The position numbers were made by a program. Shown here one piece after another: positions 6,001-9,000 of a stretch of 64,000 nucleotides of DNA. The DNA is taken from the NCBI RefSeq assembly GCF_054482595.1, contig NZ_CM137008.1. One strand, 5' to 3'. Every line of letters starts with the position of its first letter. The first letter of the stretch is position 1.

Positions 6001-9000
6001 TCGCTGTTAAAGCGGCTGTGACAGTACAGTGTTACGCTTGCGTTCAGGCACGCTACCGCCGAAGTTTCCGGCAGCCGCCATCTCCCGTGAACGTAACCCC
6101 TTACTGACAACCTTTCTTTCTACGGCGTAATACAAAAACAGCATCCGGCCTGATAGCCGGATGCTGTTGGCTTAACTTATGCTTCCAGCGGTGCGCGCCA
6201 GTCGTCGGCACCGGAGGTGCCAGATTTGACGTGTTCCCATTCAATTTTGCGGTAGGCCAGTGAAACTTCGAGCAACTGGGTGAACTCGCGTTTCGCCGGG
6301 TCCTGGCAATGCGGCATATGCAGTTTCATATCGACAATCGTCGAATCAGTCAGGCGGGTAGTGAAATAATGCTCCTGTTTGCCTTCCACAGAGGTACGCC
6401 ACCAGTGAAGTTCAGTGGTTGGCAGCATTTCGCCGGAGGCCAGTGCGTTGTACATCAGCGGAACCGCTTTGTTCAGCGCCACGGTAAAAATGAAAGGCTT
6501 GTGAGCACGCTGACCCGCAGGCTGACCGGACTGAGGATCGGTCGGGACAGTAACGTTATGCAGGAATTCCTGCACCAGCATCTCGTCTTCGTGCCCCTGC
6601 ACATAGATGTTGCCGACAGAATCAGCGGTAAATGCACCTGCAGTAATATTTCCCTGGGTCTGACCAGTGATGGAGATATAACACGGTGTTGGCATTTGTA
6701 AACTCCTTGTTAACGTGGTTAATTACTACTTACAATGACCTGCCGTTAATCCCAGGCAGGCAGATGCAGCTCACTTCACGGAACCGCATCATTTTTCAGT
6801 ATTTTTTACATACAAACCGAGCTAGAATTTACGGTTGTCGTAAAAACTATTTTTAAAATCATTAAATCTCTTATTCAGCAATAACTTAATAATATATATC
6901 TGGATAACCATACCCAACTGTTCAAAGTCCGTATTGCCTCCATAAAATGGCCAAAGCTGAATCATGAATAAATATTGTATTTATCCTTTCTGAATTATCA
7001 TTTTGATAATTTTTGAGATATTCCTTAAAAATACCCACTTAATCAATCACAAAACAAATATATAAACAAGCAATCATTAGATTAGCTTATGTTTAATAAA
7101 ATTATTATATAATTCAATAAGATACATAAAAAACTCTATATTTAAATTATTGCCATAATACACCTGACGCGAATTGCACAGGTTCATACAATCTATTTAA
7201 CGCTTGCAGAATACCCCTCTTTACGATCGATAAAAAGTCCTTTTATTATTTATTTTGAAGCGTAAAATGCGGGGTGATGAAGGAGTGGTGATTTTATTTT
7301 CACCGCCATCAAGGCGGCATTTCCGATATTTTTTGCGGTACGAATATGCCGTGTTCATGGCCTGTACGAGATAACATGACGGATCACTTTTATGAGCAAA
7401 AAATTTGAAGGCAGCGTCGCGCCTCGCGAACGTATTAATATATCGTATGTCCCAAAAACAGATGGCCAGACGGCTGAAGTGGAACTTCCGCTTAACATGC
7501 TCGTTGTCGGCGATACCGGAAATACGCAGGAAACATCCTCACTGGATGAACGTCAGGCAGTTTCCGTTAACAAGCACAATTTCGGTGCAGTGATGGCTGA
7601 AGCAGCCATTGGCCTCAATTTTACCGTCCCCGCCACGCTGAAGGGAAGCACAACGGACGATGAGCTGAATGTGGCGCTGAATATCAAGTCACTGGATGAT
7701 TTTTCACCAGATAGCGTGGCCCGGCAGGTTCCGGAAGTGAATAAATTGCTGGAACTGCGTGAAGCACTGACTGCACTGAAGGGGCCGATGGGTAACCTTC
7801 CGGCATTCCGTACCCAGCTCCAGGCATTGCTGGAAAATGAAGAGTCCCGCGAGCAGTTGCTCAAAGAAATCGGCCAGGTGAGCAATAAATAACCACCACT
7901 ATTTCATTAAACAGGGTTATCCAGGCATGACGGCACACAAAAATATCTCCGGGACATACCACCTCTCTGTTGCAGACATTCTGCAGGTGGTTTACCAGGT
8001 ATGTTTCAGCCCGTCCGTTGAAATCAACCAGGATGGTGTGGCTGCGCTGATTACAACACTGGATCGCCGTATCAGTGATCTATTGGATGAGATTATCCAT
8101 TTTTGTGAGTTTCAGCAGAGCGCGTCGCACTGGCAGCGCGTACTTCACTGACGGCGAAAAGCCGGTTTCAGAAACACAGCTAAAACAGAAGGATTTTCAG
8201 TATGTCTTTACAGGAAGAGGAACTCGTTTCCAGTCATGCCGGGCAGCCTGAGCAGGCATCGTCGCTGCTTGATCAAATCATGGCACAGACCCGTATTCAG
8301 CCCGGTTCGGAAGGTTATGACGTTGCCCGCCAGGGTGTGACAGCCTTTATTGCCAGCATCCTGCAATCCACTGCATCTGCCGAACCGGTCAATAAACTGG
8401 CCGTGGACAGCATGATTGCAGATATTGATGAACGCATCAGCCGCCAGATGGATGTCATCATCCATGCGCCTGCCTTTCAGCAGGTCGAGTCGTTCTGGCG
8501 CTCACTGAAAACCATGGTGGATCGCGTTGATTTCCGTGAAAACATCAAGGTCAACGTGCTTCATGTCACCAAGCAGGAACTTCTGGAAGACTTTGAGTTT
8601 GCGCCAGAAATTATTCAGTCCGGATTTTATAAGCACGTTTATTCGTCCGGTTTCGGACAGTTTGGCGGTGAACCCATCGCTGCCGTGCTGGGCGCTTATG
8701 AGTTCAAAAATACCGCGCCTGACATGAAACTGCTGCAATACGTCAGTGCCGTGGGCGCAATGGCGCACGCACCGTTCCTGTCCTCCGTTTCCCCGGAGTT
8801 TATGGGGCTGAACTCGTGGACCGAACTGCCTAATATCAAAGATCTTTATGCCATCTTTGAAGGTCCGGCCTACACCAAATGGCGCGCCCTGCGTGACTCG
8901 GAAGATTCGCGCTATTTAGGGCTTACGGCACCCCGCTTCCTGCTTCGCCAGCCCTATTCACCAACAGATAACCCTGTTAAGAACTTTAACTATTACGAAG

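What the first reader, a model, noticed from the sequence alone, without database searches (positions are those of the whole stretch)
6126..6176. Strong terminator between hcp and vgrG
A perfect 11 bp stem hairpin plus T-tract lies immediately after hcp on the minus strand and before vgrG-rhs. This should give high hcp transcript levels with attenuated read-through into vgrG-rhs, consistent with the stoichiometric excess of tube over spike; vgrG may have its own promoter in 5968-6125.
Basis: inference. Interest (0 to 1): 0.3.

Follow-up and report, generated by a model that had tools for sequence, protein, structure and literature searches.

The report
Known hcp terminator, followed by ops site
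The hairpin after the E. coli type VI secretion gene hcp is a real transcription terminator that was already tested experimentally in 2026, and about 75 bases further on sits a conserved loading site for the RfaH anti-termination factor, which probably controls the vgrG-rhs genes that follow.

Summary
On the minus strand, 9 nt after the hcp stop codon, there is a perfect 13-bp inverted repeat (14 pairs counting a closing U·G, loop AUCA; 6168..6137). It is followed by UUUGUAUU. It is the most stable perfect hairpin in the 64-kb window (-25 kcal/mol).

Pairing is maintained by compensatory changes in 23 enterobacterial loci, and the U-run is at least 90% conserved.

The element is already published. 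The intergenic region differs from EHEC EDL933 by one base outside the hairpin. Vazquez-Lopez et al. 2026 (PMC13141884) named it h3R region I. Deleting it raised read-through about 2-fold and cut hcp3 mRNA to 6%. It therefore acts as a leaky terminator and a 3' stabiliser.

That interval instead holds a ~100-nt block under strong purifying selection. Its invariant core is an exact ops site (GGCGGTAGCGTG, 6060..6049, non-template strand), the RfaH loading signal, which the h3R paper does not mention. EAEC Sci1 has the same order: hcp, hairpin, then the published ops1.

Verdict: the terminator is already known; the terminator-then-ops arrangement is a modest new synthesis.

The parts
6177..6695 (-). 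hcp (tssD) coding sequence, 172 aa, stop codon TAA at 6179-6177
   Evidence: ORF list; translation; Pfam T6SS_HCP, E = 5e-31; RefSeq annotation of 99.9-100% identical genomes
6137..6168 (-). Terminator hairpin: 5' arm 6168-6155, loop AUCA 6154-6151, 3' arm 6150-6137 (13 Watson-Crick pairs plus a closing U·G)
   Evidence: covariation in 23 loci; corresponds to the hairpin in region I of h3R in PMC13141884
6127..6136 (-). U-rich tract UUUGUAUUAC directly 3' of the stem (UUUUUGUAUU counting the two stem-base U's at 6138-6137)
   Evidence: the five-T run is invariant or at least 90% conserved in 23 loci
6014..6111 (-). Conserved non-coding leader block of about 100 nt between the terminator and vgrG; probably within h3R 'region II' (the paper's text gives no coordinates)
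   Evidence: Alignments A2-A4; nhmmer hits in 24 sequences, always right after the hcp hairpin; 72-91% identity where hcp 4-fold sites are 44-60% identical; no codon periodicity; no covariation for an RNA fold; no Rfam match
6049..6060 (-). Exact consensus ops element GGCGGTAGCGTG (RfaH recruitment and pause site) on the non-template strand for hcp-to-vgrG transcription
   Evidence: GGTAGC is invariant in 19 aligned sequences and in all 23 rows of the script alignment; exact ops 115-133 nt after the hcp stop in 19 loci, with one more at +332; consensus as quoted in bioRxiv 10.1101/2025.02.08.637259
3826..5967 (-). vgrG (tssI), 713 aa; ATG at 5967-5965 preceded by the Shine-Dalgarno sequence GGAGG
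1..3750 (-). rhs core gene (N-terminal 1250 codons; runs off the window end), the long distal gene of the vgrG-rhs unit
   Evidence: Pfam RHS_repeat, DUF6531 and RHS; RefSeq annotation of the O157:H7 locus
6007..6144 (-). 45-aa 'hypothetical protein' annotated in some RefSeq records (WP_001297813.1; apparently the paper's EDL933_0238). It starts inside the 3' arm of the hairpin and is judged not to be a real gene.
   Evidence: Annotation. The reading frame is broken by indels, a lost start codon or stop codons in other species. Third codon positions are as conserved as first and second (0.88 against 0.82 and 0.83).

Best explanation
The hairpin plus U-tract at 6168-6127 (minus strand) is an intrinsic (factor-independent) transcription terminator placed 9 nt after hcp. 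The hairpin also forms a protective 3' end for the hcp mRNA.

Most RNA polymerases that start at the hcp promoter stop here. This yields a short, stable and abundant hcp transcript, which fits the need for hundreds of Hcp tube subunits per single VgrG trimer.

Termination is leaky. Polymerases that escape transcribe a conserved leader of about 100 nt and reach an exact ops site about 75 nt further on (6060-6049). There they most likely pause and load the anti-terminator RfaH. RfaH would then carry them through the long, H-NS-silenced vgrG-rhs unit.

Shown here or in the literature: the anatomy, the covariation, the terminator and stabiliser phenotypes, and the presence and conservation of ops. 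Inferred: RfaH use at this particular ops site, and read-through rather than a separate promoter as the source of vgrG-rhs transcription.
For: Anatomy.
- 14-pair stem, 4-nt loop and U-rich tail in the hcp sense only; -25 to -28 kcal/mol; z = -5.2; best hairpin in the 64-kb window.

Comparative evidence.
- In 23 enterobacterial loci, 93% of cells are paired, against 35-58% when partners are slid. Eight of 14 pairs show compensatory changes, and 0 of 500 shuffles reach the covariation score.
- The five-U run is at least 90% conserved.
- Unrelated hairpins occupy the same position after hcp in more distant genera; 54 of 83 loci pass a simple stem-plus-T test.

Experimental evidence on the same sequence, from PMC13141884.
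- No hcp3-vgrG3 junction transcript in wild type.
- Deleting region I raised junction RNA and doubled downstream mCherry.
- The same deletion cut hcp3 mRNA to 6% and Hcp3 or GFP to about 50%.
- Inducing the swapped hcp promoter raised vgrG3 mRNA, which implies read-through.

ops evidence.
- Exact GGCGGTAGCGTG on the non-template strand in a non-coding leader.
- GGTAGC is invariant, and exact ops is present in 20 loci, with three further one-mismatch matches (L071's, at +264, lies in a locus outside the conserved-block group).
- The block is 72-91% identical where hcp 4-fold sites are 44-60% identical.
- EAEC Sci1 has the same order (hcp, hairpin plus T-run, ops1, next gene). There, ops1 and rfaH mutations abolish downstream transcription.
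- RfaH ChIP signal was found at two T6SS loci in UPEC CFT073.
Against: - No 3' ends have been mapped. The published evidence is end-point RT-PCR, qPCR and reporters.
- Hairpin deletion alone relieved downstream expression only about 2-fold. On the chromosome VgrG3 stayed undetectable and Hcp3 fell only to 85%.
- In Yersinia pseudotuberculosis T6SS4, the analogous stem-loop after hcp4 acted as a stabiliser and not as a terminator.
- Deleting region II, which probably contains ops, increased VgrG3 from a Ptrc plasmid. At face value this is the opposite of an activating site. It can be reconciled only by assuming that ops acts as a pause or arrest site when RfaH is limiting.
- RfaH dependence of this locus is untested.
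- The conserved sequence around ops (about 45 nt on each side) has no assigned role.
Confidence: 0.75

Rival explanations
1. hcp and vgrG-rhs are two fully separate operons. The hairpin terminates essentially all hcp transcripts, and vgrG-rhs is transcribed from its own regulated promoter between the hairpin and vgrG (5968-6125). On this view ops simply lies in that promoter's 5' leader.
For: - No junction RT-PCR product in wild-type EHEC while both genes gave amplicons.
- The authors predicted a promoter and Fis, NarP, MalT and MelR sites with BPROM, Sapphire and Virtual Footprint.
- Functional ops sites in CFT073 lie in 5' leaders of operons.
- About 75 nt of conserved sequence lies upstream of ops.
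Against: - There is no sigma-70-like match of at least 9/12 in the interval. Only one 7/12 match was found, against 4.4 expected per 216 nt.
- By eye I saw no sigma-54, sigma-E or sigma-32 consensus.
- The T-run inside the block varies by several nucleotides between species, which is awkward for a fixed promoter spacer.
- No promoter activity was demonstrated. Reporters did not respond to hns deletion, and responded less than 2-fold to the sugars and amino acids tested.
- Inducing the hcp promoter raised vgrG3 mRNA.
- In EAEC Sci1 the equivalent ops1 is used by polymerases coming from the upstream promoter.
Confidence: 0.3
2. The hairpin is only an mRNA decay barrier. The hcp-vgrG RNA is made as one transcript, cleaved, and the hairpin protects the hcp 3' end from exonucleases. 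It causes no real termination. This is what was reported for hcp4 in Yersinia pseudotuberculosis T6SS4.
For: - hcp3 mRNA fell to 6% when region I was deleted, and the effect transferred to gfp.
- The direct precedent in Y. pseudotuberculosis: mutating the stem lowered hcp4 RNA without changing downstream genes.
Against: - The U-run directly after the stem is at least 90% conserved in 23 loci. A pure decay barrier does not need it.
- Deleting region I increased junction RNA and doubled downstream mCherry.
- The stem, loop and tail geometry is that of a textbook intrinsic terminator.
Confidence: 0.12
3. The palindrome is a chance inverted repeat or a copy of a dispersed repeat (REP/BIME-like, since it contains GCCGGATGC) and has no function specific to this locus.
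For: The arms contain GCCGGATGC, which I recall as resembling the head of the E. coli REP consensus (from memory, not tested).
Against: - There is exactly one copy per genome in the 2195 of 5426 E. coli genomes that have it, always next to hcp.
- By my calculation, a perfect 13-bp stem with a loop of 8 nt or less is expected about 0.006 times in 64 kb.
- Covariation is strong.
- A functional phenotype has been published.
Confidence: 0.01

Closest known systems
h3R region I of EHEC O157:H7 EDL933 (Vazquez-Lopez et al., Microbiol Spectr 2026, PMC13141884)
   Same: It is the same element. The hairpin and U-tract are identical, and the whole hcp-vgrG intergenic region differs by one base (A6032 in the window, G in EDL933). 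The paper describes a 32-nt hairpin at +8 of the hcp3 3' UTR with 14 pairs, with terminator and mRNA-stabilising activity.
   Different: The paper has no comparative analysis and no 3'-end mapping, and it never mentions RfaH or ops. It interprets the next segment as a promoter with transcription-factor sites. Here that segment is shown to be a conserved ops-containing leader with no promoter-like consensus.
Stem-loop downstream of hcp4 in Yersinia pseudotuberculosis T6SS4 (PLoS Pathog 2025, PMC12503267)
   Same: A GC-rich hairpin directly after hcp whose mutation lowers hcp mRNA, giving excess hcp transcript relative to neighbouring T6SS genes.
   Different: In that case downstream transcripts did not change, so it was judged a 3' protective loop and not a terminator. 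In EHEC, deletion increased read-through, and the U-tract is conserved. The two sequences are not homologous.
[quoted passage not shown]
   Same: A consensus GGCGGTAGCGTG in the intergenic region just after hcp. I found that Sci1 also has a strong hairpin plus T-run between hcp and ops1, so the order is the same: hcp, hairpin, ops, next gene. The match extends to GGCGGTAGCGTGCCTGA in both.
   Different: It belongs to a different T6SS family and a different Hcp. The gene after ops is clpV/tssH, not vgrG-rhs. RfaH and ops dependence was shown experimentally there but not for the locus in this window. The preprint says only that the EDL933 cluster 'carries ops elements' and does not mention a hairpin.
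Classical RfaH/ops leaders (rfa, rfb, kps, hly, tra; RfaH targets mapped by ChIP in UPEC CFT073, PMC9765446)
   Same: The 12-nt ops lies on the non-template strand in an untranslated leader ahead of a long, horizontally acquired, H-NS-silenced cell-envelope or virulence operon.
   Different: Here ops sits directly behind an intrinsic terminator inside a gene cluster, not simply downstream of a mapped promoter. No Rfam family, including any JUMPstart-type model, matched the leader.

Membership tests
Intrinsic (Rho-independent) transcription terminator | Stable GC-rich stem-loop with a short loop | tested here: met
   14 pairs (8 of them G-C), 4-nt loop, -25.2 kcal/mol for 32 nt; z = -5.2 against shuffles
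Intrinsic (Rho-independent) transcription terminator | U-rich tract immediately 3' of the stem, on the transcribed sense only | tested here: met
   UUUGUAUU (6 T in 8) after the stem on the minus strand; GGCTTAAC on the plus strand. The five-T run is at least 90% conserved in 23 loci.
Intrinsic (Rho-independent) transcription terminator | Located downstream of a stop codon in the sense of the gene | tested here: met
   The stem starts 9 nt after the hcp TAA, on the same strand
Intrinsic (Rho-independent) transcription terminator | Base pairing maintained in evolution (compensatory changes) | tested here: met
   8 of 14 pairs have double changes; 93% of cells are paired against 35-58% for slid controls; 0 of 500 shuffles reach the covariation score
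Intrinsic (Rho-independent) transcription terminator | RNA 3' ends in the U-tract, or termination by RNA polymerase alone | not testable with these tools
   There is only indirect published evidence: no junction RT-PCR product, and about 2-fold more read-through when the hairpin region is deleted (PMC13141884)
3' stabilising stem-loop (mRNA decay barrier) | Removal lowers the upstream mRNA while leaving downstream transcription unchanged | not testable with these tools
   Published results: upstream hcp3 mRNA fell to 6%, which meets the first half; downstream read-through rose, which does not meet the second half. The element therefore stabilises but is not only a stabiliser.
REP/BIME dispersed extragenic palindromes | Many copies per genome at unrelated intergenic sites | tested here: not met
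   Exactly one place per genome in 2195 E. coli genomes, always at hcp
ops element / RfaH-dependent leader | 12-nt consensus GGCGGTAGnnTG | tested here: met
   Exact GGCGGTAGCGTG at 6060-6049; consensus as quoted
ops element / RfaH-dependent leader | On the non-template strand, in an untranslated leader rather than inside a coding region | tested here: met
   Same sense as hcp and vgrG. The overlapping annotated ORF shows no codon periodicity and is broken in other species. The two other exact ops-like hits in the window lie inside ORFs.
ops element / RfaH-dependent leader | Conserved across orthologous loci | tested here: met
   GGTAGC is invariant in 19 aligned sequences. Exact ops is found in 20 loci. 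Two of the three further one-mismatch matches lie in block-carrying loci; the third is in L071 at +264, outside the block group. One block-carrying locus (L013) has a degenerate site, and ops is otherwise absent from loci that lack the block.
ops element / RfaH-dependent leader | Followed by a long, H-NS-silenced operon | tested here: met
   vgrG (2.1 kb) plus rhs (4.2 kb in O157:H7) follow it. H-NS silencing of this cluster is reported in PMC13141884.
ops element / RfaH-dependent leader | RfaH binding, and RfaH- and ops-dependent expression of downstream genes | not testable with these tools
   Shown for EAEC Sci1 ops1 and by ChIP at CFT073 T6SS loci, but not for this locus
Curated Rfam RNA family (any, including a JUMPstart-type leader) | Covariance-model match | tested here: not met
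   Only generic hairpin matches, with E of 0.36 or more and scores far below gathering thresholds
Sigma-70 promoter for vgrG within 5968-6125 | -35 and -10 hexamers with 15-19 nt spacing | tested here: not met
   No match of at least 9/12. One 7/12 match, against a background of 4.4 per 216 nt.

The most novel reading that the evidence does not exclude
The hcp terminator and the ops site about 75 nt behind it may form a conserved two-part valve used by at least two unrelated enterobacterial T6SS families (the EHEC-type cluster and EAEC Sci1).

The hairpin would set a high Hcp-to-spike ratio by terminating and stabilising hcp RNA. RfaH loaded at ops would then decide whether the polymerases that escape complete the long, H-NS-silenced vgrG-rhs (or clpV and following) genes.

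This would explain why swapping the promoter in EHEC gives Hcp3 but no VgrG3, PAAR or Rhs. It would also reinterpret h3R 'region II' as an ops pause and loading site rather than a promoter.
Probability: 0.5. Interest if true: 0.5.

Novelty: already known. Interest (0 to 1): 0.3.

Why it matters
The terminator explains how a T6SS cluster makes far more tube protein than spike and effector from one promoter region. That point is now published for this exact sequence.

What this analysis adds:
- Pairing and the U-tract are under selection across more than 20 enterobacterial species.
- The segment the authors treated as a promoter carries a perfect, invariant ops site.

If RfaH acts there, the unexplained failure to express VgrG3 and Rhs in EHEC becomes directly testable with an ops point mutant, an rfaH deletion or RfaH overexpression. 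It would also connect the EHEC system to the RfaH control recently reported for EAEC and UPEC T6SS clusters.

Tried and rejected
1. REP or dispersed-repeat origin of the palindrome. Rejected: one copy per genome.

2. The annotated 45-aa ORF (6144..6007), or an internal 24-aa ORF (ATG at 6081), as a real gene or leader peptide. Rejected: the start codon is lost, or frameshifts or stops occur, in several species. Third codon positions are as conserved as first and second.

3. A conserved RNA secondary structure for the 100-nt block (long-range GUUACG/CGUAAC helix plus an inner GCCGGAAACUUCGGC hairpin). Not supported: 89.1% of cells are paired, but shuffles give 89.0%; only 2 pairs show double changes; the RNAalifold covariation term is unfavourable. 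The conservation is in the primary sequence.

4. A hairpin sequestering the vgrG Shine-Dalgarno sequence. Rejected: mean pairing probability is 0.67, against 0.74 for shuffled upstream sequence.

5. A sigma-70 promoter for vgrG in the intergenic region. No support. By eye I saw no sigma-54, sigma-E or sigma-32 consensus either.

6. Rfam families. Nothing above chance.

7. Other ops-like sites in the window (19525..19514 and 35023..35012). Both lie inside ORFs, and the first is antisense to the long + strand ORF that covers it. They are probably chance matches.

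Full report
**Locus**

The window carries the E. 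coli T6SS cluster found at the yafV/aspV region of EHEC O157:H7 and many other strains. The paper calls it T6SS-2. On the minus strand lie hcp (6695..6177), vgrG (5967..3826) and an rhs gene that runs off the window end. tssB, tssC and the following genes diverge on the plus strand from 7392. The 851-nt query across hcp and the start of vgrG is 99.9-100% identical to many RefSeq E. coli genomes.

**Observation**

Nine nucleotides after the hcp stop codon there is a perfect 13-bp inverted repeat (6168-6156 / 6149-6137). A closing U·G pair extends it to 14 pairs with the loop AUCA. It is followed by TTTGTATTAC.

- The 66-nt context folds at -28 kcal/mol (z = -5.2; 0 of 200 shuffles).
- The 32-nt hairpin alone folds at -25.2 kcal/mol. 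It is the longest perfect stem and the most stable hairpin on either strand of the whole 64-kb window.
- The T-rich tail exists only in the hcp sense.
- The sequence occurs exactly once per genome in 2195 of 5426 complete E. coli genomes, always at hcp. It is therefore not a REP-type repeat.

**Comparative evidence**

A scan of one genome per species with the Hcp protein returned 80 loci.

Almost all have a hairpin right after the hcp stop codon. By a simple stem-plus-T criterion, 54 of 83 loci qualify.

In 22 enterobacterial loci the hairpin is homologous to the window's (core ACAGCAU...AUGCUGUUUUU). These include E. albertii, E. whittamii, Citrobacter, Yokenella, Atlantibacter, Buttiauxella, Lelliottia, Trabulsiella, Phytobacter and Enterobacter. 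In the 23-sequence alignment:

- 93% of cells form standard pairs, against 35-58% when partners are slid by 1-3 columns.
- 8 of 14 pairs carry compensatory double changes.
- No shuffle out of 500 reaches the observed covariation score.
- The five-T run after the stem is invariant or at least 90% conserved.

Selection on both the stem and the U-tract is what an intrinsic terminator predicts. A pure decay barrier would not need the U-tract.

**It is already published**

Vazquez-Lopez et al. (Microbiol Spectr, April 2026, PMC13141884) studied this intergenic region in EHEC EDL933 and named it h3R. The window differs from EDL933 by a single base outside the hairpin (A6032 in the window, G in EDL933).

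They describe a 32-nt hairpin at +8 of the hcp3 3' UTR with 14 pairs. Their results:

- No hcp3-vgrG3 junction RT-PCR product in wild type.
- Deleting the hairpin region (region I) increased junction RNA and doubled a downstream mCherry reporter.
- The same deletion reduced hcp3 mRNA to 6% and Hcp3 or GFP to about half.
- On the chromosome the effect on Hcp3 was smaller (85% of wild type), and VgrG3 stayed undetectable.
- Clear VgrG3 expression from Ptrc required deleting region II as well.
- Inducing the swapped hcp promoter raised vgrG3 mRNA, which implies some read-through.

The element therefore behaves as a leaky terminator and a 3' stabiliser. 'Strong terminator' overstates the termination component.

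A close analogue exists in Y. pseudotuberculosis T6SS4. There the hairpin after hcp4 stabilises hcp4 mRNA without affecting downstream genes (PMC12503267). That result is the main rival reading.

**The suggested vgrG promoter**

In 5965-6180 on the minus strand there is no sigma-70-like site at 9/12 or better. There is only one at 7/12, whereas the window averages 4.4 such sites per 216 nt. The paper's promoter is a software prediction, and its reporters did not respond to hns deletion or to the media tested. The promoter remains unproven and has no sequence support here.

**What that interval does contain**

Alignment of the whole intergenic region from 13 species shows a block of about 100 nt (6111..6014). 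It is far better conserved than its surroundings.

- nhmmer finds it in 24 sequences, always directly after the hcp hairpin. This includes two loci where the next gene is not vgrG.
- It is 72-91% identical to the window in species where hcp four-fold degenerate sites are only 44-60% identical. It is therefore under purifying selection at the nucleotide level.
- It is not coding. The annotated 45-aa ORF, and an internal 24-aa ORF, are broken in several species and show no codon periodicity.
- A plausible RNA fold has no covariation support.
- No Rfam family matches.

The invariant core is GGCGGTAGCGTG (6060..6049), an exact match to the ops consensus. It lies on the non-template strand for hcp-to-vgrG transcription.

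Exact ops lies 115-133 nt after the hcp stop in 19 loci. One more locus has it at +332. Three further one-mismatch matches were found; two are in block-carrying loci, and the third is in L071 (an Aeromonas locus) at +264, outside the block group. One block-carrying locus (L013) has a degenerate site. ops is otherwise absent from loci that lack the block and have short hcp-vgrG gaps. The two other exact ops-like matches in the window lie inside ORFs. According to the CFT073 study, ops sites in coding regions do not recruit RfaH.

**Link to RfaH**

ops is the loading and pause site for the anti-terminator RfaH.

- Taillefer, Desjardins and Cascales (bioRxiv 10.1101/2025.02.08.637259) showed that in EAEC Sci1 a consensus ops1 between hcp and clpV, together with rfaH, is required for transcription of the downstream genes. 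They remark that the EDL933 cluster carries ops elements.
- Hustmyer et al. (PMC9765446) found RfaH ChIP signal at two T6SS loci of UPEC CFT073 once H-NS and StpA were removed.
- The h3R paper never mentions RfaH or ops.
- The EAEC preprint never mentions a hairpin.

I read the Sci1 hcp-tssH intergenic region of EAEC 042. It has the same order: hcp stop, a 10-bp GC-rich hairpin with ATTTTTATTTTTT, a second hairpin, then GGCGGTAGCGTGCCTGA about 30 nt before the tssH start. This is a different T6SS family with a different Hcp.

**Model**

Shown:
- a terminator and stabiliser hairpin after hcp;
- leaky read-through;
- a conserved ops site on the correct strand in an untranslated leader ahead of a unit longer than 6 kb that is silenced by H-NS.

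Inferred:
- polymerases that escape the terminator load RfaH at ops and are thereby able to complete vgrG-rhs;
- without enough RfaH, ops acts as a pause. This would account for region II behaving as an inhibitor on a multicopy Ptrc plasmid.

The alternative, in which a separate promoter lies between the hairpin and ops, cannot be excluded.

**Verdict**

- The terminator itself is already known.
- The terminator-then-ops arrangement and its conservation are a modest new synthesis that is directly testable.

Noticed in passing
window 6014-6111 (minus strand); ops at 6049-6060: A conserved non-coding block of about 100 nt between the hcp terminator and vgrG. Its invariant core is an exact ops (RfaH) site. 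The roughly 45 nt of conserved sequence on each side of ops has no assigned function.
   Followed up: yes
L086 29173-29340 (E. coli 042 Sci1, hcp-tssH intergenic region): The layout matches the window: a GC-rich hairpin plus T-run after hcp, a second 17-pair hairpin, then ops GGCGGTAGCGTGCCTGA before tssH. The second hairpin's core (CAGCAUC...GGUGCUG) resembles the window's terminator stem. This could be homology or coincidence.
   Followed up: partly
L037, L041, L042, L046, L059, L061, L072, L078, L080, L083 (Dickeya, Pectobacterium, Siccibacter, Enterobacter), about 40-75 nt after the hcp stop: A second conserved hairpin with CTGAG...CTCAG arms (for example GTGCTGAGGTGTGGCGAAACCAGACCTGAGCAC) lies between the hcp terminator-like hairpin and vgrG. 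These loci lack the ops block.
   Followed up: no
window 6993-7011 (hcp-tssB divergent intergenic region, 6696-7391): The palindrome AATTATCATTTTGATAATT matches 17 of 18 positions of three NATWAT hexamers, so it is Fur-box-like (by eye, from memory of the consensus). It sits in the AT-rich bidirectional promoter region. I recall that the EAEC Sci1 promoter is Fur-regulated, but I did not check this.
   Followed up: no
window 6007-6144 (minus strand): Some RefSeq records annotate a 45-aa hypothetical protein (WP_001297813.1) that starts inside the 3' arm of the terminator hairpin. Comparative analysis indicates that it is not a real gene.
   Followed up: yes
window 34636-34666: A 12-bp perfect hairpin, AAAAAGGCACCG...CGGTGCCTTTTT, is flanked by an A-run and a T-run. 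It lies between convergent ORFs (33264..34622 on + and 34670..35440 on -) and looks like a bidirectional intrinsic terminator.
   Followed up: no
window 19514-19525 and 35012-35023 (minus strand): Two further exact matches to GGCGGTAGnnTG lie inside ORFs, one of them antisense to a long + strand ORF. They are probably chance matches and not functional ops sites.
   Followed up: partly
window 7927-8151 (+): A 74-aa ORF between tssB and tssC is annotated as a hypothetical protein (WP_000123970.1) in RefSeq copies of this cluster. Its function is unknown.
   Followed up: no
L018 and L030, downstream of hcp: In Lelliottia nimipressuralis and Citrobacter werkmanii, the hairpin and ops block are followed not by vgrG but by other ORFs of unknown function (154-321 aa). 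A vgrG-like sequence lies about 2-2.6 kb further on.
   Followed up: partly
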